Assembly: GCA_963786955.1 (NCBI GenBank)
Contig: CAWBAT010000005.1
Span: forward strand, 160,001 to 224,000
Length of the DNA stretch: 64,000 bases
Direction of reading: 5' to 3'
Source: an uncultured Acidimicrobiia bacterium
Lineage (GTDB): Bacteria; Acidobacteriota; Terriglobia; Versatilivoradales; Versatilivoraceae
The stretch's first letter is position 1. The number at the start of each line of letters is the position of its first letter. The notes under the pieces are model-generated. The model searched no databases. It had not been told where the DNA came from and saw nothing but the letters and a program-made list of their open reading frames with translations. Both the position numbers and the translations under genes were made by a program. Shown one piece after another: positions 22,540 to 58,152 of the stretch.

Positions 22540-24506
22540 CTAAGGTCGGGGTCGCTGGAGGCCCAAGGCCCTCATGCGGGAGTTCAAGGTAGAGGGGTTC
22601 ATTCCCAGGCGCTCAGCCGCGCCCCCCACTCCTGAGACGCGCCAACCCGCGGCGTCTAAGGCGAACTTCAGGTTACTTTTTTCGAGCTCTTCCATCTCTT
22701 GGGCGGTGCGAATCCGGATTGGATCGTCGGCTGCCTTCGCCACCGAAGCAGAGGATTTGCTAGACAGGCCTTCTGGCGCAAAGTCGGGCAGGGCTCGTGT
22801 CAAGTTCAGGTGACCATCGTGGGCGGTAATCACCGCCCGTTCGATCACATTCTCCAATTCGCGGACATTGCCAGGCCAAGGGTAAGACTTGAGCTTGTAC
22901 AGGCTCTCAGAAGACAGCGGCTGTAGCTTCTTACCTACCTTCTGAGCGAACTTCTGAGTGAACGCCGCTGCCAGCATCGGAATGTCTTCGCGGCGCTCGC
23001 GCAGCGGCGGCAAATGCAGAGGGAATACATGGAGGCGGTAGAAAAGGTCCTCACGGAAGCGTCCCTCCCGCACGGCTTGGAGCAGGTCGCAATTTGTTGC
23101 GGCGAGAACGCGCACATCGACCTTGCGGGTCAGGGAACTACCTACCGTTTCGAATTCTCCCTCCTGCAAAATCCGTAGCAGCTTGGCTTGCAGATCGACA
23201 GGCAGCTCGCCGATCTCATCGAGGAAAATGGTTCCGGTGTCAGCAAGAGCGAAGCGCCCTTCTCTTTTCAGTGTCGCACCGGTGAACGCGCCCTTTTCAT
23301 GACCGAACAGCTCGCTTTCTATCAGAGATGCAGGCAAGGCTGCGCAGTTCACTTTGACAAAAGGTTTGGAGCTACGCCCGCTGGCAGCGTGAATGGCCCG
23401 CGCGATCAGTTCCTTGCCGGTCCCCGTTTCGCCCGTAATCAATACCGTGGCATCGGTTCCTGCCACTTGTTGAACTTCGTCCAGGACCCGCGCAAGAGCT
23501 GGGCTGCGGCCCAGGATTTCCTCGAAATTGTGTTCTGCCTTGATCTCTTCCTTGAGGTACTCGGTTTCGGCCGTCAAAGCGTGGATGCGTTGTTCAGCTT
23601 CCAGCCGGTCGTTGATATTGCGGAGAATGAGTGTGTAATAGGTCTCGCTCTGCATCTCAAACCGGGACAGCGTCGCCTCAGCCGAAAATCCATGGCCGTT
23701 TGGACAAACGGCTCTCAGACCGCCAGGAATCCAGAGGTATTGCTGTCCTTCAGGCCGGGCATCGAGCTCCCGAATCAGGCGTTCAAGTTTCTCGGCTCCA
23801 TCTTCCGAGAGAAACTGGACAAAACGCTGGCCCATAATTCGCTGGTCAGAACAATTGAAAACCTTCTGTGTGGCGCGGTTGACCCGCGTCACCGTCAGGT
23901 TGTGGTCCAGCTCCATAATGGCGTCCATGGCGCTATCAACAAGTCGTCCGAGCTTCTCTTCGCGCTCGCGCACTTGCGACTCCGCCCGCATCCGCTGCAG
24001 TTCAGCCGCTGCTCGTGCCGCGAAGATGTGAAACAACGCCATATTCCGCGGACTTTCTGGCATTGGCCGCCGGTCCAATACGGCCAGGTGTCCCAGCACC
24101 TTCCCATCCAACCCCAACAACGGGACACCCAGATAACTGGCCACTCCGATGGATTGAATGCTCGGATCGTTCGGGTAAAGATCGATGACCCGATCCGGAT
24201 AATGCACAAGACGGGCGCCGGTGATCACAGCCTCGCAGGGCGTGCCGTCGATGACGTGCACTCGTATTTCTCCACCCATTGGCCGCCCAGCCAGAAAGCC
24301 AAAGCCCGCAAACGGCGCGGCCCTTCGAGGTATTCCGTGACCCAGGCGCCATAGGTGTCCAGGGCCCTGGCGAGGTTCTGGACTAGGGCCGAGAAAAATC
24401 CTTCTCCAGTCTGGATGGCAGTGCCCTCGAGGATCGTGCGCAACGCTTCGTCTTCATCAAGTCCTTTCAGGTTTGGGGATGCCGCTCTCTGATTATTAGC
24501 TTTCAT
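22540..24506 (-). CDS. Sigma54-dependent activator (GAF-PAS-AAA-HTH, FhlA-like); frameshift near 24260
   Basis: [23 protein letters not shown] and WPGNVREL motifs with a C-terminal HTH; the N-terminal GAF part lies in ORF 24225-24671. Confidence 0.9.
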
Positions 24507-44994: not shown

Positions 44995-45410
44995 TTCTTA
45001 TTCCCCCTTACTTAAAGGGCGCCGGGGGATGTCCTGTTTTGTGAATTCTTCATTTGGCATTCGTCATTCAGCATTTATCATTTCTGACTTTAGACTCTTA
45101 ACCTTAGACCTTTGACCTATTTTCTGCTTTCTGCCTTCTGACTTTTGACCTCAGACCTCTGACTTTCGACGTTTAAGTTTGACCTTAGATCTTGGACAAA
45201 ATTTTTGCGTCCTTTGCGCTCTTTTGCGGCAATACTTGCTTTGACTTTTTCTTTAGGTTTTAGACTTTGGACTTTCGACCTTCGACCTTGGACCCTCGCT
45301 AATCTCCATTCGCCATTCGTCATTTCTGACTTTGGACTTTCAACCTTTGACTCTGAAACTCCGAACTCTTATCCCTGCCTTCTGCTTACTGCTTACTGCC
45401 TTCTGTCTTC
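44995..45410. repeat. Composite heptamer/nonamer repeat block
   Basis: Shares ~70 bp with 58375-58444; heptamer runs present. Confidence 0.8.
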
Positions 45411-51743: not shown

Positions 51744-53696
51744 TCAGACTGCATGAAGAGCGACAGCCGCCTTAAGCGTCTCACCCTGACGCGGCAAATC
51801 TTGCCTGTTCAAAAAAATGGTGTTGAACCAAAGTTCGATGCCAAAAATCATCCATAGTGGCCAAATGTGTCTAACATCATCCCCCTTGTTGTAGAATTGT
51901 GTCATTTCCTGATACATATGCCGCACACTGTTTTCGGCCACCCATCCCTGAGATACTAGGCTTAGCGAATCCCAGAGCTGCTCGGCGCCGAGAGTCTGGA
52001 ACGTCTCGACAAAAAGATGGGTGAAATCCGCTTTTGTGAGTCGCTGGCGTACTGTTTCAGGCAAATAACCTTGGCATGCCTGGCGAAGAACGAATTTGTT
52101 TTGGTTACATTGGAAGCGCTGGTCTTCTGGCAGTGCCAGTGCAAATTCAACAACCCGCCGATCATGAAGTGGGTGCCGCCCTTCTAATCCATGCCACGAT
52201 GCTTCGCGTTCTTCCATCTCGCTGGCGTGGACCACAAAACCATTAGTCGCTGCCAGATAGATTTCCCAGGGGGCAAATCCTAACGGTGATGGGCGCATCG
52301 CCTTTGTTTCAATTCGCTCAGCAAGTCGTGTTCGACCAGCAAAGCCTCTCTCGATCCAGCCGGGAGTAGGCCGTCTGTTCTCCTTTCCAAGCATTCGCCT
52401 AACCCTCGAGCGCGCACTCTGGGGAAGCAGTGGCCAGAGGCCGTAATGTAATAGTCGAGACAAGGTAACAGCAGCTCCTTCAGTTCGGAACACAAATCCG
52501 AGCTCTCGAACTAATTCTGGAACTTTGAGCCGCTGCAAAAGGTCGGCATAGCGGTACCGGCTGCCCCCCAACCACTCATCACCACCCACTCCACTCAGCA
52601 CGACGCGGATCCCTCTGTCCCTAACCAGTTGGTTCACCGGGTTCGCAGTGCCGCCATTAGGATAACCGGGAAAATCTTGGTATCGCTGTGTTCGCTCGGA
52701 ATATAAGCTGAGTTCGCCGACGTGATGGCGAGTCGAGTGCCACCTGAGATGCCATATCTTGATAACGTCATTTATATAGGCGCTCTCATCGCAGGGATAA
52801 CCGGGATAAATTGTAGAAAAAGCCTCTATCTCGGAGATACAAGAACTTCCTTCCTCTGCAAGGGAAGCGGCCACACCTGCAACTGACGACGAATCCAGCC
52901 CTCCACTCAGCGACACTCCCACTGGCGTGGTGCTCCGCAGACGACAGCGCACAGCCTCTCTGAAAATCTCCAGAAAGTGTTCAGCATAGTCTTCGTCCGA
53001 CTCGTAGCGAATCTCTGGGCATGGATCGATGGACCAGTAGCGTTGTTTCCGGAATGAACTGGGACTGAGTCGCAAGTAGTGGGCTGGTGGCAGCCGGAAG
53101 ACATTTTGAAAGAGCGTCTCCTCTTGATGAGTGATAGCACTCGCCAAATATTCGGCAATCATACCCTCATTCGGTTTACGTCGAACTAAGGGGTCGATAA
53201 AAAGCGGAGGCAACTCGGAGGAAAATAGAAATGCCCGGCCCGTGTTCACATAGTAGAACGGCTTTAATCCTAGAAAGTCTCGAGCGCAGAAAAACACCTG
53301 TTGCCGCTTGTCCCAAATTGCAAAAGCAAAGTCACCAATGATTCGCTTCGGGCACTCTTCTCCCCAGCAATCGTAGGCCTTCAGGACTAGTTCAGCATCT
53401 GTATCATCTCGAAGCCTGCCGCCTTTGGCTTCAATGGCAGCTTTCAACTCGTCTCGATTATCGACACGCCCGTCAAGCGTAAGACAGAGATTGCCGGTTT
53501 CATCAAGCAGGGGCTGTTTCTCGTGAAGGGCCTCAGGCGTCGTGCAAAGCATTTGATGACCAAGCCCGACCGGACCGTCAATCCAGTACCCCACCCCGTC
53601 AGGCCCGCGGTGTGAAATCGCGTCGGTCATCCGCTGCAGTAACCTGCGATCAACGGGAGCCCCATCCAAATTATAGATGCCAGCAATGCCGCTCAT
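51744..53696 (-). CDS. Lasso cyclase (asparagine synthetase-like, C protein)
   Basis: MSGIAG (no N-terminal Cys), SLSGGLDSS and SGVGGDE; adjacent to B1, B2 and the precursor. Confidence 0.9.
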   Translation of the reverse strand: MSGIAGIYNLDGAPVDRRLLQRMTDAISHRGPDGVGYWIDGPVGLGHQMLCTTPEALHEKQPLLDETGNLCLTLDGRVDNRDELKAAIEAKGGRLRDDTDAELVLKAYDCWGEECPKRIIGDFAFAIWDKRQQVFFCARDFLGLKPFYYVNTGRAFLFSSELPPLFIDPLVRRKPNEGMIAEYLASAITHQEETLFQNVFRLPPAHYLRLSPSSFRKQRYWSIDPCPEIRYESDEDYAEHFLEIFREAVRCRLRSTTPVGVSLSGGLDSSSVAGVAASLAEEGSSCISEIEAFSTIYPGYPCDESAYINDVIKIWHLRWHSTRHHVGELSLYSERTQRYQDFPGYPNGGTANPVNQLVRDRGIRVVLSGVGGDEWLGGSRYRYADLLQRLKVPELVRELGFVFRTEGAAVTLSRLLHYGLWPLLPQSARSRVRRMLGKENRRPTPGWIERGFAGRTRLAERIETKAMRPSPLGFAPWEIYLAATNGFVVHASEMEEREASWHGLEGRHPLHDRRVVEFALALPEDQRFQCNQNKFVLRQACQGYLPETVRQRLTKADFTHLFVETFQTLGAEQLWDSLSLVSQGWVAENSVRHMYQEMTQFYNKGDDVRHIWPLWMIFGIELWFNTIFLNRQDLPRQGETLKAAVALHAV

Positions 53697-54286
53697 ATCC
53701 GGTTCACTTCCTGCAAGAGGGTTGGATCAAAAGGCGAGAAGCGCTCGTGAATGTCGCTGCCCTCATTGAGAGGTTGTCCGAAGCACTCCACCCAGGCGTG
53801 GGCTTCAAGTAAAGCTGCTTCTTTACGCACACCGATTCGCAAGGTGCTCTCCATCCCATTCCGCCGCAAAAACCACCAGGTAACAAGCGACTGCTTGAGG
53901 CAGTTGGCCCGAAAGGGGCCGTGGTTAGCCGCGAGCCTCACCACTCTGGCAACGAGGGCTGCCTTGGCTTCGAGATCGGAGGGGCGAGAGCCTTTAGAGT
54001 CCACGGGAGTCAGTGGTTCGCTAGGGACACACCCCGGCACGCTCCCGCTTGCCACCCCTCTCAAGAGGGGACTTCTAGCCATGTCACCACCCCCTAGTCC
54101 TTCGAACAGTTCCTCCCCCTGTCTGTGTTCGAATGAAGGAGAAGCCCTTTGGGCTAGAAAAGAATAGATCCGCCGGAAGCCAAGGATGCGCATGGCCAAG
54201 GCCGCGAGTGGGAGCAGCAGCAAGGCCTGGAAAAAGATTTGCTTTTCTAAACGGCTCAGTTGAATAAGCTTGAAGAGTTTATTCAT
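53693..54286 (-). CDS. Lasso leader peptidase (B2)
   Basis: CLKQSL, LRIGVR and AHAWVE transglutaminase-like motifs. Confidence 0.92.
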   Translation of the reverse strand: MNKLFKLIQLSRLEKQIFFQALLLLPLAALAMRILGFRRIYSFLAQRASPSFEHRQGEELFEGLGGGDMARSPLLRGVASGSVPGCVPSEPLTPVDSKGSRPSDLEAKAALVARVVRLAANHGPFRANCLKQSLVTWWFLRRNGMESTLRIGVRKEAALLEAHAWVECFGQPLNEGSDIHERFSPFDPTLLQEVNRI

Positions 54287-54563
54287 CCTTAATCTCGACC
54301 AATTCCTGGTCCACTAGTTTTTGAAGTAAATCTTCCAGGTCTTTTCGAAGAATCTCGGGCTCCACCTCATATTCTGACAACAAGGTGTCATACGCTTCTT
54401 GCAGCGAGGGAGCTGTCGTCAAGACAGTCCACATGCGAGTACCCATTTCATCCAGTCCAAAATAGCGTTCGCTTTTAAGGCTGAGTATCACCGATTCACT
54501 ACCAAGAACATTGATGAGAGTATCCGATGGGATGGAAACGCGTGTTGTATTCGTTATGGTCAT
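54279..54563 (-). CDS. PqqD-family RRE (lasso B1)
   Basis: ESVIL...YFGLDE.G..MW and L..EYEV....L..DL..L...L pattern. Confidence 0.92.
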   Translation of the reverse strand: MTITNTTRVSIPSDTLINVLGSESVILSLKSERYFGLDEMGTRMWTVLTTAPSLQEAYDTLLSEYEVEPEILRKDLEDLLQKLVDQELVEIKDE

Positions 54564-54961
54564 AATCTTCTCCTGAAAGGACTCACTGCATAACTCGCGG
54601 AGGACATAGAAAATGGGCGGAGTGCACGCGGATAAACACGGGAACGATTAACCGCCAAGAACGCCAAGTACGCAGAGAAAAATGAGCCGCAAATGGAAGA
54701 TGGCGATTGGCGATTGAAAAGCTAACTCTCGCAAAGAACGCAGAGTGCGCAAAGAGAAATAAAAGAGTAAGTGTCGTCAATTAGACCTTGGGCCTTGTAC
54801 TACGGACTTTTGACCTCCTAACTTGCAATTGCTTTTTGCGTTTTTTGCGCCCTTATAGTTGTGCAATATTGCTTATTCTCTTGCCCCTGGCAGGGAAGGA
54901 GCCCGAAGGGCGACTGGAATGCCAGGGGCAAGAGAACTCATTTCGACAGCAGGAGCCCCTC

Positions 54962-55786
54962 TTGATCAACAACACCAGTTTGCAACGTTGGGACCGCATC
55001 AGTGCTAAATCCATTGACACTCAATTTAAGACCGCCATGCAGCGGGGGCTGAATTGTTCCCCTTTCGAAGCCCAGATCATGGTCGAAAAAGTCCATGAAC
55101 TTTATGGACCCTTGTTCGACAACTCAACCACTGTGCAGCCCGGACAGATTCAACTCATGGTAGTGGATGCCTCTGTGCCTCCCGGTGTTCCGCTGTCCCA
55201 AGCTGCTCAGAAGCTGGCCACCCTCACCCTGCTGGATAAAGAGGAAGACAACCAGATCCAGCAGCGGCAAACCATCCCGGCCCTGCGGCAACATCGTCTG
55301 ATGCGAGTTGCCGAAGAAGCCTTCCAGCAAGGGGGTCTGCTGACTTTGGAGGATCTGGCCCTGTTGTTTAATTGCGGCCTGCGCACTTTGGTTGGCGACT
55401 TGGCCGCATTGCGCCAGCAGAATCTGGTGCCGCCTCTTCGTTCCACCGTCAAAGACATCGGTCGAGCTGTAACCCATCGCCGCCTGATTGTCTCACTGTG
55501 GCTGGAAGGCAAAGAGTATTCCGACATCGCCTTGCATTCTCATCACAGCGTTTCTTCAGTGGCCAACTACGTGGAAAAATTCAAACGCTGTGCCGCCTTG
55601 CTCCAACATGGCTTTGATCTGACGACCACCGCTTTCCTGATTCGCTTGTCCGCCCCTTTGGTGGAGCAATTCCGCCAGTTGCATCAGACGGCCAAACCGG
55701 CGGTCCACCGGCAGCAGGAACTCTTGGGCTTCTTAAAAAAAAGCTCAGCCGATCTGCCGAGCCGCCCAACCCGGAGGTCCCAGTGA
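54962..55786 (+). CDS. DUF1670-like protein A
   Basis: PGQ, R..EEAFQQGGLLT.EDL, P.R..KDIG..VTHR and HS..SV.NY; AGGAG before the TTG at 54962. Confidence 0.75.
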   Translation: MINNTSLQRWDRISAKSIDTQFKTAMQRGLNCSPFEAQIMVEKVHELYGPLFDNSTTVQPGQIQLMVVDASVPPGVPLSQAAQKLATLTLLDKEEDNQIQQRQTIPALRQHRLMRVAEEAFQQGGLLTLEDLALLFNCGLRTLVGDLAALRQQNLVPPLRSTVKDIGRAVTHRRLIVSLWLEGKEYSDIALHSHHSVSSVANYVEKFKRCAALLQHGFDLTTTAFLIRLSAPLVEQFRQLHQTAKPAVHRQQELLGFLKKSSADLPSRPTRRSQ

Positions 55787-56532
55787 ATCCTCCGGCCCAA
55801 TCCATAAAACATTACCGCTCTGCTCAAAACCGCTTTCTCCGCCCTTCCATCCAGCGGTTTTTGCAAAGCCAGTGCCCCAAGCTTTTTGGCCCCTTGCTTG
55901 CCGAACGTTTGGCGGAAAAAATTGTCGAGCTAGTTGAAAAACAGTTGCCCCATAAAGATCATCTGCAGCCGGGCCAGATGGTCTGGAATGCGGTCTCTCA
56001 ACAATCCAGACCTAACAGCCCGAACCTGCAATTGCTCCCAGTCCTGTTGACGTTGGTCGATCCTTCCGATGTCGAGCAACTGGCAAAGGGCTCCTCGATG
56101 ACAACCATCGCTAAAAAGGCCATCGCCCGTATTTGCTGCGAGGCCCATCAACAAGGCGCCTTGTTGACCATGCGGGATATCGGCCTTTTTTGCTGGCGGC
56201 AAAACTCGAGGCTTTCCTCCTTGCGGGCTGCCTGGGAAAAAGAACATGACACCACTCTCCCACACAGCGGCAGTTTGCAGGACTTTGGCTCTTGTATCTC
56301 TCACAAAAAAACCATCGTCAAAAAGGCCATCCTTGACAAAAAAGACCCGAAACGGATCGCTCTCGAAACCAAACATTCACAAAAGGCCGTGGACCGCTAT
56401 CTGAAGGATTTCCATCGGGTCAAAACCTGTTTCCAACACAATCAAAGCCTCGAGTTCATCGCTCAAGTCACTGCCTTGTCACCTTTCCTGGTCAAACAAT
56501 ACGTGGAGATAATCAATGCCTCTAATCTCTAA
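55783..56532 (+). CDS. DUF1670-like protein B
   Basis: PGQMVW, RI..EA.QQGALLT.RD, G..QDFG..ISHK and HS..AVDRY; overlaps A by 4 nt. Confidence 0.8.
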   Translation: MNPPAQSIKHYRSAQNRFLRPSIQRFLQSQCPKLFGPLLAERLAEKIVELVEKQLPHKDHLQPGQMVWNAVSQQSRPNSPNLQLLPVLLTLVDPSDVEQLAKGSSMTTIAKKAIARICCEAHQQGALLTMRDIGLFCWRQNSRLSSLRAAWEKEHDTTLPHSGSLQDFGSCISHKKTIVKKAILDKKDPKRIALETKHSQKAVDRYLKDFHRVKTCFQHNQSLEFIAQVTALSPFLVKQYVEIINASNL

Positions 56533-56655
56533 AAAACAACTTGATACGCAATATTGCCTAATTTTTGCGGCGATAGCTGCTTTAGGCTTTTGACTTTCGA
56601 CCTTAGACCTTAAACCTGCCTTCTGTCTTTTGACTCCGGACTCTTGGAACTCTGA

Positions 56656-58152
56656 TCAATTCACTCTGGTAAAGGCACCGGCTGCTTTGGCGCGGACCGC
56701 CTCGCGGTTATCCCGCTCTGCCGTCTCCTCTGCTACATCACGCACAACCTCGCGAACGGATCCCTGCAATCGCTCGCGCAGGCCGCGGTGCAGCACCTCG
56801 ACAAAAGGGGCTACGATCATTGCATTATTGCCAGACTCAAACTTCCGGGTGAGATTGATATAACCAAAGCCATCCAGAGGAATCCTCAAGTGCCAGCAAT
56901 TATCCACCGTTTCCGTCCCTAGTTGTGCTTCGAAAACCTGTTCCAGCAAATGGCAGCGCACTTCGATGAAACCAAGGCTCTGGCAGGTTTCTCGAATGGC
57001 ACTCCAGAAATCTTCAACCGTTTTGGCTGCGGCCAGCGTCTCTTCAAAGCGCCGCAGGAGCAAATGCCCGCTCAGCATGCGCCGGAAAGCCCCTGCCAGT
57101 ACCAGGCGGCGGGCGACGCCGAACTCAACATAACCCAGGTGTTGCACCCCAACCCAGGTAACCGCGCAAAACAGCAGAATGATGAGCCCCTGGCCCCGGT
57201 TTTGCAGAAAACCTTGGAGTAACGAGAAGGCGGCTCCGAGCGCGCATAGCCCGTAGAGAACCAAAGCGACACGGCGGGGAGTGAATCCGCGATCAAGCAG
57301 ACGATGATGGATGTGTCCCCGGTCTGCCTTGAAAAGCGGCTCGTGGTGCAGATAGCGGCGCACCACCGAAAGGCAGACATCCAGAAGCGGAATGGCGAGG
57401 GTCATGAGGGGTGCGGTCATGCCCAGAAAGGTGGCGGACTTCTGGCTCCAGATCACCCCAAAACAGCCCAGCAGAAAACCAATCAACAGACTTCCGGAAT
57501 CCCCCAGGAAAATGGAAGCGGGATTGAAATTGTAACGCAGAAAACCCAGCAACGCACCGGCCAGAGGAATTGTGGCCAGAGCCAGCGGCACATTTTTCTG
57601 CAGTAAGGCGGCAACAAACGTCGTGACGGTGGCAAAGAGTCCCAGGCCCGAAGCTAGCCCGTCCACCCCATCAATCAGATTGAAGGCGTTCATGCAAGCT
57701 ACTAGCCAGAGAAGCGTCAGCGGCAATGTCCACCACCAGCTATCGGCGCCATGTCCTGCCACTGATAAGATGCGGACGCCGGCCCAGTAAGCGAGTAATG
57801 AAGCACTCACCTGGCCAACCAACTTTTGCCAAGGTCGCAACCCGAACAGGTCATCCGCCAGACCGACGGCGAAAATCAGGGCAGCAGCGGGCAAGAGCAA
57901 CAGAGCCTGATGAATATTTTTAGCAATGAGGTTGCCTGCGTTCAATGGGGACAGTAGCAGCAGCCCATAAGCAGCCAGATAGGCCGCTACGATTGGGACA
58001 CCCCCCATTCGCGGAATGGGATTTTGCTGCAGCTTACGCTGGCCATCGGGCTGATCCACCATACCCAGGCAACGAAAAGCGTTTCGGCACAGAGGGGTGA
58101 GGATCAACGAACAGAAAAAAGAAACAATTCCGAGTATGAGAAGTGAATACAT
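56656..58152 (-). CDS. WecA/MraY-family undecaprenyl-phosphate sugar-1-phosphate transferase
   Basis: PRMGG, DD, NAFNLIDGVDGL, FLGDSGS and DRGHIHH motifs. Confidence 0.93.
   Translation of the reverse strand: MYSLLILGIVSFFCSLILTPLCRNAFRCLGMVDQPDGQRKLQQNPIPRMGGVPIVAAYLAAYGLLLLSPLNAGNLIAKNIHQALLLLPAAALIFAVGLADDLFGLRPWQKLVGQVSASLLAYWAGVRILSVAGHGADSWWWTLPLTLLWLVACMNAFNLIDGVDGLASGLGLFATVTTFVAALLQKNVPLALATIPLAGALLGFLRYNFNPASIFLGDSGSLLIGFLLGCFGVIWSQKSATFLGMTAPLMTLAIPLLDVCLSVVRRYLHHEPLFKADRGHIHHRLLDRGFTPRRVALVLYGLCALGAAFSLLQGFLQNRGQGLIILLFCAVTWVGVQHLGYVEFGVARRLVLAGAFRRMLSGHLLLRRFEETLAAAKTVEDFWSAIRETCQSLGFIEVRCHLLEQVFEAQLGTETVDNCWHLRIPLDGFGYINLTRKFESGNNAMIVAPFVEVLHRGLRERLQGSVREVVRDVAEETAERDNREAVRAKAAGAFTRVN

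What the first reader, a model, noticed from the sequence alone, without database searches (positions are those of the whole stretch)
54855..56561. Two-gene DUF1670-like cassette behaves like an insertion element without a recognisable transposase
Seen: two overlapping paralogous genes fill a 1.7-kb segment oriented against the host operon. It is bounded by the palindrome GCAATATTGC at 54863 and 56548 (inverted repeat GCAATATTGCTTAT / GCAATATTGCGTAT). Joining the flanks (...TTTGCGCCCTT | TTGCGGCGATA...) restores the host repeat seen intact near 45213 (TTTGCGCTCTTTTGCGGCAATA), which acts as an empty-site proxy. There is no clear target duplication and no DDE, HUH or serine motif. Both proteins end in H-S-x5-Y (HSVSSVANY, HSQKAVDRY) preceded by a conserved His, loosely resembling the tyrosine-recombinase GHSSITITQRY box. 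Inference: a poorly characterised mobile-element class using a heterodimeric, possibly Tyr-nucleophile, recombinase.
Basis: partly seen in the sequence, partly recalled or inferred. Interest (0 to 1): 0.8.

Follow-up and report, generated by a model that had tools for sequence, protein, structure and literature searches.

The report
Insertion sequence with DUF1670-only genes
This 1.7-kb segment is a real, recently active jumping gene whose only two proteins belong to an uncharacterised DNA-binding family with no recognisable transposase domain, so it may move by an undescribed enzyme.

Summary
Window 54855-56562 is a mobile element carrying two overlapping DUF1670 paralogs (orfA, orfB). The genome has a second copy with 1 mismatch in 1717 bases, a third decayed copy (~70% identical), an excision scar and a mini-remnant. 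Uninterrupted host repeats give true empty sites. These show insertion after a C-rich run, usually in the loop of a short GC hairpin, with a 2-nt repeat (TT, TT, CG here; CT in most relatives). Joining the right and left ends would create a sigma-70 promoter (TTGATA-17-TATAGT) reading into the genes, which points to a circular intermediate. A covarying hairpin with invariant purine loops lies in the left end. Relatives occur as ~1.7-kb units in several bacterial phyla. The proteins model as HTH and winged-helix modules, with no DDE, HUH, serine, tyrosine-integrase or IS110 domain found. D-x-G-x4-H...H-x7-Y is conserved in both paralogs and lost (Tyr to Phe/Leu) in non-mobile chromosomal homologs. 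My best reading (0.6) is an autonomous IS of an undescribed family that behaves like IS110 but uses a different, possibly Tyr-based, heteromeric recombinase. Catalysis is not shown.

The parts
54848..54852 (+). Host target, C-rich left half (CGCCC). It is shared by all three insertions in this genome and is part of the host repeat, not of the element.
   Evidence: uninterrupted host arms read ...cgcccTTacagggc and ...cgcccCGatggggc.
54853..54854 (+). Left copy of the 2-nt core / target duplication (TT).
   Evidence: Empty sites hold one copy and filled sites two. The dinucleotides match in 16 of 20 insertions scripted.
54855..56562 (+). The inserted element proper (1708 bp): ATAGTTGTGC...GCAATATTGCCTAAT.
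54863..54872 (.). Left-end 10-bp palindrome GCAATATTGC, 8 nt from the element tip. Presumed protein-binding site.
   Evidence: It is conserved as GC(A/C)ATAT(T/G)GC in relatives.
54876..54936 (+). Conserved hairpin in the left end: a 17-bp outer stem, invariant purine internal loops (GGAAGGAG / GACUGGAA), an inner 4-bp stem and a triloop.
   Evidence: Fold energy -53.3 kcal/mol, z -5.2. Across 15 relatives 95% of cells pair against 59% in shuffles (0 of 500 reach it), and 21 of 24 pairs change on both sides. No Rfam match.
54951..54955 (+). Shine-Dalgarno AGGAG for orfA.
   Evidence: Read. Copy 3 has GAGGAGG followed by GTG at the same place.
54962..55786 (+). orfA, DUF1670 paralog A (274 aa, TTG start).
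55783..56532 (+). orfB, DUF1670 paralog B (249 aa). Its GTG start overlaps the orfA stop (GTGA).
56541..56546 (+). TTGATA, an outward-facing -35 hexamer in the right end. After end-joining it lies 17 nt from T+ATAGT.
   Evidence: Read. Tabulated for relatives. No such promoter is found upstream of orfA in the integrated form.
56548..56557 (.). Right-end 10-bp palindrome GCAATATTGC, 5 nt from the element tip.
56563..56564 (+). Right copy of the 2-nt core / target duplication (TT).
56565..56575 (+). Host target, right half (TTGCGGCGATA) of the TTTGCG-type host repeat.

Best explanation
Window 54855-56562 is an autonomous insertion sequence of a family that I could not find described.

Shown:
- It is mobile and was recently active.
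- It inserts next to a C-rich run, usually in the loop of a short GC-rich hairpin inside host intergenic repeats.
- It leaves one extra copy of a dinucleotide (TT or CG here, CT in most relatives).
- It has no long terminal inverted repeats, only a 10-bp palindrome near each tip.

Inferred:
- It excises as a circle in which the right and left ends abut across one core dinucleotide.
- That junction assembles a sigma-70 promoter (-35 in the right end; -10 made of the second core base plus the first five left-end bases). The promoter transcribes a structured leader hairpin, then orfA and orfB.
- The two DUF1670 paralogs are multi-HTH / winged-helix proteins that work as a heteromer. They bind the end palindromes and the target and carry out a 2-nt-staggered exchange between junction and target.
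- They use the conserved D-x-G-x4-H...H-x7-Y residues, with the invariant Tyr on an HTH recognition helix as the likely nucleophile.

The leader hairpin is conserved and functional. It does not behave like a programmable guide. I rate it most likely a protein-binding or regulatory RNA.
For: Mobility:
- Copy 2 at C7:144829-146545 has 1 mismatch in 1717 bases. Copy 3 at C7:146903-148620 is ~70% identical, with a TAG stop and breaks.
- True empty sites exist in uninterrupted host repeat arms, for example C5:182259 and C4:199431.
- An empty paralogous site exists in an independent genome, G335: GCGC-CT-TCGGCGCT against the filled site in L036.
- There is an excision scar at C5:1306109 and a mini-remnant at C5:411314.
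- G335 has 3 copies, 99.8-99.9% identical over 1781-1799 bases. One search finds only these three in the genome.
- Distribution is patchy: 8 of 41 relatives, and 2 of 301 phylum genomes over the cut-off, G000 included.
- 28 loci lie in records labelled as several bacterial phyla at 41-61% protein identity.
- Most homologs sit on 1-3 kb contigs.
- DNA runs X1 and X3 hold the element as 1743- and 1760-bp contigs that end at 54847 and 56564. Four different right flanks are seen in these two runs, and a fifth in RNA-library run X12.

Core and target:
- The dinucleotides are identical in 16 of 20 insertions.
- A flank inverted repeat of at least 5 nt occurs in 16 of 20 insertions, against 63 of 378 mismatched flank pairs.

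Junction promoter:
- 14 of 24 rows read TTGnnn-17-TATnnT.
- No equivalent promoter is found upstream of orfA in the integrated copy.

Hairpin.

Proteins:
- In 119 aligned A+B sequences, G169, H174 and Y206 are 100% conserved and D167 and H198 are 99%.
- Five syntenic single-copy homologs sit between housekeeping genes. They keep R116, Q124 and P160 in 5 of 5 and A121 in 4 of 5. They have H174 to Y (5 of 5), Y206 to F or L (5 of 5), H198 to Q or L (4 of 5) and G169 replaced (5 of 5).
- Fusions with 2 to about 4 modules exist.
- The A+B complex prediction gave weak support: score 0.48, best of 3 controls 0.00. That mark was reached by 58 of 80 solved complexes and 2 of 110 mismatched pairs, but scores of 0.60 or under by only 7 of the 80. 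Runs agree in at least 44% of contacts. Partner pLDDT is at least 68.
Against: No catalytic fold or domain was found.
- Pfam gave only DUF1670 and HTH families. NCBIfam gave nothing below E 0.05.
- The PDB profile search gave only a designed HTH repeat.
- Foldseek gave nothing at E <= 0.001 for the whole model or for the N-terminal model.
- VIA-align best Z was 6.2, all HTH or winged-helix, for the whole model, and 4.5 for residues 1-109.

So catalysis by these proteins is inference only.

Other points against:
- In 4 of 20 insertions, all of the Bacteroidota-type subfamily, the two dinucleotides share only the first base.
- 5 of 24 rows (L050-L053, L055) give no sigma-70 -10, and 5 further rows were mis-registered by my script.
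- IS110-like elements are present in the same genome (read from sequence, not profile-tested), so mobilisation in trans is not excluded.
- ISfinder could not be consulted.
Confidence: 0.6

Rival explanations
1. The element is mobile, but OrfA and OrfB are only DNA-binding specificity, architecture or regulatory factors. Strand cleavage and joining are done by an enzyme encoded elsewhere, such as a co-resident IS110-type recombinase, a Xer-type recombinase or another host enzyme.
For: - The models consist of HTH and winged-helix modules plus a small helical / beta-hairpin N-terminal part with only a faint HU/IHF-like hint (Foldseek E 0.47). No catalytic fold was found.
- IS110-like sequences are present in the genome and have hit the same host repeat unit.
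- The behaviour (CT core, promoter rebuilt across the core, repeat-element targets, left-end RNA) matches what PMC11208160 reports for IS110 (passages read).
Against: - The two genes fill the whole 1.7-kb unit. They are conserved with invariant polar residues across 119 sequences and across records labelled as several phyla.
- Those residues are specifically lost in the non-mobile homologs. That fits catalysis better than binding.
- The co-resident IS110-like copy sits at a different position in the repeat unit.
- Xer-type exchange, as I recall it, needs a 6-8 bp shared overlap, and here only 2 nt are shared.
- No partner gene recurs in the flanks read. This was not systematically tested.
Confidence: 0.25
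2. One reading: OrfA and OrfB are divergent members of the tyrosine recombinase (integrase) superfamily, with HS-x-Y as the box II equivalent.
For: - An invariant Tyr lies 8 residues after a 99%-conserved His, and an invariant His lies 24 residues further upstream. From memory, this spacing resembles box II.
- R116 and K/R175 are conserved.
Against: - No PF00589 match at E <= 1.
- No integrase appears among the listed fold matches.
- The region is a sigma-region-4-like HTH, Z 6.2 over residues 172-220.
- There is no H-x-x-R. The sequence reads T-H-K-K/T-H-R-R.
- The core is 2 nt.
Confidence: 0.04
3. An RNA-guided element like IS110: the left-end hairpin is a guide or bridge RNA that pairs with target and donor.
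For: - The hairpin is strongly conserved and covaries.
- It lies downstream of the predicted junction promoter.
- In the window copy the apical part contains AAGGGCG, complementary to the target CGCCCTT (read).
Against: - The unpaired loops are invariant while targets and cores vary. The same GAA-type hairpin goes with a TT core (window), a CG core (copy 3) and a CT core (L040).
- The complementary bases are inside the inner stem, whose strands swap (GCCC/GGGC to GGGC/GCCC) between subfamilies with no matching change in targets.
- Several subfamilies (L038, L042-L048) lack the motif.
Confidence: 0.05
4. Not mobile: a duplicated host regulatory cassette that happens to lie in repeats.
For: The proteins look like transcription factors, and non-mobile homologs exist.
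Against: - Identity boundaries are exact, with unrelated flanks.
- Empty sites exist.
- There is an excision scar.
- Three copies in G335 have different flanks.
- Several different flanks are seen in metagenome contigs.
- Presence is patchy.
Confidence: 0.01

Closest known systems
IS110 / IS1111 family (bridge-RNA recombinases, e.g. IS621)
   Same: - No long terminal inverted repeats.
- Exchange centred on a core dinucleotide, CT in IS621 and CT in most DUF1670 elements.
- Targets in repetitive palindromic elements.
- A promoter rebuilt across the core when the right and left ends join.
- A structured RNA-like element in the left end upstream of the gene.
The IS110 facts come from PMC11208160, passages read.
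   Different: - The proteins are unrelated. There is no PF01548 or PF02371 match, and there are two paralogous multi-HTH proteins instead of one DEDD+Ser recombinase.
- The hairpin loops are invariant and do not covary with target or core.
IS607-type and other serine recombinases
   Same: A 2-nt core shared by donor and target, and no long inverted repeats. The serine-recombinase features are recalled, not read here.
   Different: - No PF00239 match.
- No Ser is conserved at 90% or more in 119 sequences. The best is S233 at 85%.
- The model has only two beta strands.
IS30 family (DDE)
   Same: As I recall and did not check here: a 2-3 bp duplication, a circle or tandem junction carrying a strong promoter, a preference for palindromic hot spots, and N-terminal HTH domains.
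   Different: No DDE / RNase H-like domain was found, there are no terminal inverted repeats of IS30 type, and there are two paralogous genes.
Tyrosine recombinases / integrases
   Same: Conserved His...His-x7-Tyr with conserved Arg and Lys/Arg elsewhere, so a Tyr nucleophile is possible.
   Different: The fold was not matched, there is no H-x-x-R, and the core is 2 nt rather than the 6-8 bp I recall.
IS200/IS605 (HUH) elements
   Same: Asymmetric ends with subterminal palindromes, and insertion linked to hairpin-forming sequence. The IS200/IS605 features are recalled.
   Different: There is no HUH motif or fold, and a 2-nt duplication is present.
Pfam PF07900 (DUF1670)
   Same: Both proteins are clear members. 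The family also rings in Methanosarcina acetivorans (control).
   Different: The family has no assigned function. Searches of the paper library for 'DUF1670' and 'PF07900' gave 0 papers.

Membership tests
Insertion sequence (generic) | Several copies with identical ends in unrelated flanks | tested here: met
Insertion sequence (generic) | Empty sites lacking the element | tested here: met
   Paralogous uninterrupted host repeats in G000 and in G335. The orthologous site in G002 holds other DNA, so it gives no clean orthologous empty site.
Insertion sequence (generic) | Encodes its own transposase | not testable with these tools
   Only the two DUF1670 genes are inside the element. Their activity is inferred.
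PF07900 DUF1670 | Profile match above the gathering score | tested here: met
   133.7 and 162.7 bits against a cut-off of 25.
Tyrosine recombinase | Sequence-profile match to the Phage_integrase catalytic domain | tested here: not met
   Pfam at E <= 1 gave no PF00589 match for either protein.
Tyrosine recombinase | Integrase catalytic fold | tested here: inconclusive
   No integrase appears among the listed matches. Absence from a list does not exclude the fold.
Tyrosine recombinase | R...H-x-x-R...H/W...Y catalytic set | tested here: not met
   His, His and Tyr are present, but the H-x-x-R arginine is absent (T-H-K-K in orfB, T-H-R-R in orfA). The definition of the motif is recalled.
Tyrosine recombinase | 6-8 bp overlap shared by the recombining sites | tested here: not met
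   Only 2 nt are shared or duplicated. The feature is recalled.
Serine recombinase / IS607 | Resolvase catalytic domain with an invariant Ser | tested here: not met
   No PF00239 match. No Ser reaches 90% conservation in 119 sequences.
Serine recombinase / IS607 | 2-nt crossover | tested here: met
   This fits the family's mode of action but does not establish membership.
IS110 family | DEDD RuvC-like domain (PF01548) plus Ser domain (PF02371) | tested here: not met
   No match. The feature is taken from PMC11208160.
IS110 family | Core dinucleotide and a promoter rebuilt across the right-end/left-end junction | tested here: met
   by sequence only. No circle was observed.
IS110 family | Left-end RNA whose loops pair with target and donor | tested here: not met
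   The loops are invariant while targets and cores vary.
DDE transposases | RNase H-like catalytic core | tested here: inconclusive
   The model has two beta strands only, and no DDE enzyme appears among the listed matches.
HUH (IS200/IS605, IS91) | HUH motif and fold; insertion without duplication | tested here: not met
   No conserved H-hydrophobic-H. A 2-nt duplication is present. The fold is absent from the lists, which on its own is inconclusive.

The most novel reading that the evidence does not exclude
DUF1670 proteins are a new class of DNA strand-transferase built entirely from helix-turn-helix and winged-helix modules. The Tyr nucleophile sits on a recognition helix. The proteins work as an A/B heteromer, or as one chain in the 2-4-module fusions. 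They move an IS through a circle and a 2-nt core, as IS110 does, but with protein rather than RNA reading the target hairpin. The conserved purine-loop leader hairpin would be a new cis-acting RNA partner of this enzyme.
Probability: 0.4. Interest if true: 0.9.

Novelty: new variant of a known kind. Interest (0 to 1): 0.78.

Why it matters
As I recall, the known prokaryotic transposases fall into a handful of enzyme classes: DDE, HUH, serine, tyrosine, Cas1 and the IS110 type. Here a compact, widespread and recently active IS carries none of them. It encodes only two paralogs of a domain of unknown function.

- If these proteins catalyse the reaction, they define another route to site-specific DNA insertion. 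It would come with clear, testable parts: two small proteins, two 10-bp palindromes, a 2-nt core and a hairpin target.
- If they do not catalyse it, the element shows how an IS can hijack another recombinase.

Either way this gives Pfam DUF1670 a biological context. It explains why these genes break metagenome assemblies into ~1.7-kb contigs. It also flags a conserved RNA-like hairpin and a chromosomal, apparently inactivated relative.

Tried and rejected
- Rfam, window 54500-56900, E <= 10: no match.
- Plasmid collection, tblastn with orfB: no match.
- ESM Atlas with PF07900 left out: best score 0.81, small archaeal HTH proteins, below the 0.9 lead level.
- The search for related loci with the single protein found no relative.
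The closer alignment A2 worked.
- Orthologous empty site in same-genus genomes: G001 had no match. G002 keeps both flanks (83-88% identity) but holds about 1.3 kb of other DNA there, so it gives no clean empty site.
- Circle junction: read laying on X6, X12, X1 and X3 used contigs only and showed no right-end/left-end joint. This cannot show absence.
- Transcription: the RNA-library run X12 holds contigs over orfA and orfB. RNA-library contigs can come from DNA, so transcription is not shown. X6 covered only flank pieces. The lack of cover over 54824-54904 in the RNA runs means nothing.
- Guide-RNA idea: the apical AAGGGCG is complementary to CGCCCTT in the window copy. I rejected it as a general rule because the hairpin does not covary with cores or targets.
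- Terminator role for the hairpin: no T-run follows it.
- Fold searches listed only HTH and winged-helix matches. Topo VI-A and Spo11 winged-helix rows (Z 5.7 and 5.3, residues 101-168) are common-fold level and do not cover the invariant Tyr. The HU/IHF hint for residues 1-109 is weak (E 0.47).
- Literature: 'DUF1670' 0 papers; 'PF07900' 0 papers; a five-term search for novel transposases 0 papers. 'ISNCY / Methanosarcina / insertion sequence' listed 12 titles, none on this family, and I read only the listing. Supplements are closed and ISfinder is not on hand, so an existing IS name cannot be excluded.
- The look-up of encoding contigs was not called, as it is stated to be closed.
Full report
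WHAT IS THERE

Window 54855-56562 carries two + strand genes. orfB (55783-56532, 249 aa) starts with a GTG that overlaps the orfA stop (GTGA). The listed orfA ORF begins at 54788, outside the element. The likely start is TTG 54962, six bases after AGGAG, which gives 274 aa. Relatives are typically 272-274 aa. Copy 3 has GAGGAGG followed by GTG at the same place.

Both proteins match Pfam PF07900 DUF1670 (E 8e-39 and 1.1e-47) and nothing else above threshold. NCBIfam gives nothing better than E 0.05. They are paralogs, 28% identical (E 4e-20).

The neighbours lie on the - strand. On the left is a lasso-peptide-type set (Asn_synthase, Transglut_core3, PqqD). On the right is a family-4 glycosyltransferase.

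GCAATATTGC occurs exactly twice in the window, at 54863 and 56548. Shuffles gave a mean of 0.08, and 0 of 100 had two matches.

IT IS MOBILE

The window's genome (G000, 9 contigs) holds several traces of this element.
- A second copy lies at C7:144829-146545, with one mismatch over 1717 bases.
- A third copy lies at C7:146903-148620. It is about 70% identical and carries a TAG stop and frame breaks.
- Identity between copies 1 and 2 starts and stops abruptly at 54848 and 56564, with unrelated flanks.

Copies 2 and 3 sit in the two arms of a host repeat unit. Uninterrupted arms elsewhere in the genome are true empty sites.
- A-arm, empty: ...ctatcgcccTTacagggcactc...
- A-arm, filled (copy 2): ...cgcccTT[ATAG...CCTAAT]TTacagggc...
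- B-arm, empty: ...caacgcccCGatggggctc...
- B-arm, filled (copy 3): ...cgcccCG[ATAG...CCTAA]CGatggggc...

The window copy reads ...tttgcgcccTT[...]TTttgcggcgata. Other copies of that host repeat read tttgcgNNcTTTTGCGGC.

One A-arm, at C5:1306109, reads ...cgcc-TAATTT-acaggg. That is left flank fused to the last bases of the right end, an imprecise-excision scar. C5:411314 holds a ~30-bp remnant inside another hairpin.

AN INDEPENDENT GENOME AGREES

A closed Acidobacteriota-labelled chromosome (G335) has exactly three copies, 99.8-99.9% identical over 1781-1799 bases. All are in the same orientation within about 260 kb, each with different outer flanks. A paralogous uninterrupted repeat there reads GCGC-CT-TCGGCGCT. 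The filled site reads GCGC-CT-[element]-CT-TCGGCGCT.

TARGET AND CORE

I scripted 20 insertions that have both flanks. L043 was missed by my pattern. Read by eye, it is CT/CT in TCCGCC...GGCGGA.
- The two nucleotides before the left end equal the two after the right end in 16 of 20: TT, TT and CG in G000, and CT elsewhere.
- The other four (L051, L053, L055, L056), all of the Bacteroidota-type subfamily, share only the first C.
- The left flank is C-rich.
- The two flanks form an inverted repeat of at least 5 nt in 16 of 20, against 63 of 378 mismatched flank pairs.

So the usual target is the loop of a short GC hairpin, for example GCCC-TTACA-GGGC. Some sites (L038, L040) are not palindromic.

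Metagenome contigs add more sites. Runs X1 and X3 hold the element as 1743- and 1760-bp contigs that stop at 54847 and 56564. Four different right flanks of the (A/T)CAG(G/A)GC type are seen in these two DNA runs, and a fifth in RNA-library run X12.

DISTRIBUTION

- DUF1670 was found in 8 of 41 relatives.
- Over the cut-off, it was found in 2 of 301 evenly drawn genomes of the phylum, G000 included.
- One search returned 28 loci at 41-61% protein identity. Their records are labelled Acidobacteriota, Syntrophobacteraceae, Thiobacillaceae, Bacteroidota, Desulfobacterales, Aminicenantia and others.
- One of those records is a Methanomicrobiales MAG contig of only 1.9 kb, so that host call is weak.
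- The family profile also rings in the Methanosarcina acetivorans control.
- Most database homologs sit on contigs of 1-3 kb, the signature of a repeat that breaks assemblies.

ENDS AND PREDICTED CIRCLE

There are no long terminal inverted repeats. Each end carries the 10-bp palindrome, GC(A/C)ATAT(T/G)GC in relatives. It lies 8 nt from the left tip and 5 nt from the right tip.

The right end carries an outward TTGACA-like hexamer, TTGATA at 56541-56546. If the right end, one core dinucleotide and the left end are joined, this hexamer lies 17 nt from T+ATAGT.

In one search, the 24 rows divide as follows.
- 14 rows read TTGnnn-17-TATnnT. L040, for example, reads TTGACA-17-TATAAT.
- 5 rows were mis-registered by my script.
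- 5 rows (L050-L053, L055) give no sigma-70 -10.
- L054 reads TATATT at the -10; with the next two left-end bases this is TATATTTG. From memory, TATATTTG fits the Bacteroidetes TAnnTTTG motif.

The integrated copy has no comparable promoter upstream of orfA.

A promoter rebuilt across the core is what PMC11208160 reports for circular IS110 forms. That paper also reports a CT core and REP-element targets (passages read). I therefore infer a circular intermediate. None was observed, because the runs available were contigs, which cannot show rare junctions.

THE HAIRPIN

Positions 54876-54936 fold into a 17-bp stem, a purine-rich internal loop, two pairs, a tandem GA/GA, a 4-bp stem and a triloop (-53.3 kcal/mol, z -5.2). 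Fifteen distinct relatives were aligned without gaps. Counting pairs on that alignment gave these figures.
- 95% of cells pair, against 59% in shuffles (0 of 500 shuffles reach the observed value).
- Slid controls give 32-47%.
- 21 of 24 pairs show changes on both sides.

The inner stem swaps strands (GCCC/GGGC to GGGC/GCCC) between subfamilies. The loop letters GGAAGGAG and GACUGGAA are invariant or nearly so. Rfam has nothing.

The hairpin's distance from the tip varies, which fits an RNA better than a recombination site. The motif is missing in L038 and L042-L048. In those, the left tip instead pairs with the ribosome-binding region, a fold-back arrangement known from other IS (recalled).

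The hairpin does not covary with core or target. I therefore reject a bridge-RNA-like guide and favour a protein-binding or regulatory leader. Its function remains unexplained.

THE PROTEINS

A library-wide search with orfB gave 702 proteins at E <= 0.001. These include natural fusions.
- Two full modules: P0230 and P0233.
- About four modules: P0144, P0146, P0160 and P0181, 930-952 aa. My profile finds two strong modules, one weaker full module and one partial module in each.

None of the fusions carries any other Pfam domain except HTH families.

The AlphaFold model of orfB (pLDDT 88.5) has an N-terminal helical part with one beta hairpin, a winged helix (about residues 103-168) and two HTH units (172-220 sigma-region-4-like; 200-249 TrpR/DeoR/resolvase-HTH-like).
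- Foldseek gave nothing at E <= 0.001.
- VIA-align best Z was 6.2, and all rows were HTH or winged helix.
- Residues 1-109, modelled alone (pLDDT 87.9), gave best Z 4.5 and Foldseek E 0.47 to HU/IHF.
- A profile search of PDB sequences found only a designed HTH repeat.

No catalytic domain is recognisable.

CONSERVED RESIDUES AND A NATURAL CONTROL

Over 119 aligned A- and B-type sequences, conservation is as follows.
- G169, H174 and Y206 (orfB numbering): 100%.
- D167 and H198: 99%.
- R116 and A121: 97%.
- Q124 and P160: 95%.
- K175 is Lys in B and Arg in A.

Five related genera carry a single, shorter DUF1670-like gene. It lies in conserved synteny between argC-like, proC and ferrochelatase genes. 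These non-mobile homologs keep R116, Q124 and P160 in 5 of 5 and A121 in 4 of 5. They differ at the other positions.
- H174 to Tyr: 5 of 5.
- Y206 to Phe (4) or Leu (1).
- H198 to Gln or Leu: 4 of 5.
- G169 replaced: 5 of 5.
- D167 replaced: 3 of 5.

Loss of exactly these residues where mobility is lost argues that they serve the reaction rather than the fold. This is the best evidence here that the IS-borne proteins are enzymes and that the Tyr is a nucleophile candidate. It remains inference.

A WITH B

The genes are translationally coupled. They are always adjacent in the elements read, and they are fused in some lineages. The complex prediction gave weak support: score 0.48 against a best of 3 controls of 0.00. 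That mark was reached by 58 of 80 solved complexes and 2 of 110 mismatched pairs, but scores of 0.60 or under by only 7 of the 80. Runs agree in at least 44% of contacts, and the partner's pLDDT is at least 68.

COMPARISON WITH KNOWN FAMILIES

The element works like IS110/IS1111: a core dinucleotide, hairpin-repeat targets, a junction promoter and a left-end structured RNA. It also resembles serine-recombinase elements in its 2-nt core. It is a member of neither, because the defining domains are not matched and no invariant Ser exists.

The integrase fold was not matched, which by itself is inconclusive.

I found no paper naming DUF1670 or PF07900, nor one on this family in two further searches (listings only). 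Supplements and ISfinder were out of reach.

VERDICT

This is a genuine, recently active IS of an apparently undescribed family. Whether DUF1670 is itself the recombinase (0.6) or a specificity module for another enzyme (0.25) needs the bench tests listed.

Noticed in passing
window 51744-54563 (- strand): A lasso-peptide-type maturation set (Asn_synthase 650 aa, Transglut_core3 197 aa, PqqD 94 aa). No convincing precursor ORF lies in the 285 bp between it and the IS. The IS sits where an upstream precursor or promoter would be expected.
   Followed up: partly
window 45000-45400, 54600-54850, 56565-56650; G000 C4:772500-774700: Dense intergenic host repeats of TTTGCG / TTTGAC(C/T)TT type. About a dozen near-identical units of ~140-200 bp are clustered on C4. 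The window IS copy lies in one of these repeats.
   Followed up: partly
G000 C7:146546-146902; C5:1306109-1306433; C6:650490-650813; C4:199431-201447: A host repeat unit with two similar inverted arms, each ending in a small GC hairpin. In C7 both arms carry a DUF1670 element, head to head and 357 bp apart. On C4 the middle of such a unit holds ~2 kb that includes an IS110-like C-terminal coding sequence, also seen at C3:350017 and C4:1074. The IS110 assignment is by eye and was not profile-tested.
   Followed up: partly
L025 (G002:C20, about 23060-24400): At the syntenic site between the PqqD-like gene and the glycosyltransferase, the same-genus genome G002 has about 1.3 kb with two small ORFs that read like a HigB/HigA-type toxin-antitoxin pair instead of the IS. 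This was read from the ORFs only, with no family search.
   Followed up: no
L017-L021 (G010, G019, G007, G008, G006): A single-copy, syntenic DUF1670-like gene (208-258 aa, lacking the N-terminal part) lies between argC-like, proC and ferrochelatase genes. The family's invariant His and Tyr are replaced. It looks like an exapted or ancestral non-mobile relative, possibly a regulator.
   Followed up: partly
P0144, P0146, P0160, P0181 (930-952 aa); P0230, P0233 (532-544 aa): Single polypeptides made of two to about four DUF1670 modules. Their genomic context was not examined.
   Followed up: partly
G335:C1:6600673-6864638: All three copies in this closed chromosome lie in the same orientation within about 264 kb, near one end of the record. 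This suggests local hopping.
   Followed up: no
window 54560-54700 and L025: One search shows one RNA-library contig (X12) that skips 116 bases (54578 to 54695) in the left flank outside the element. This is probably a repeat-length variant of the host repeats.
   Followed up: no
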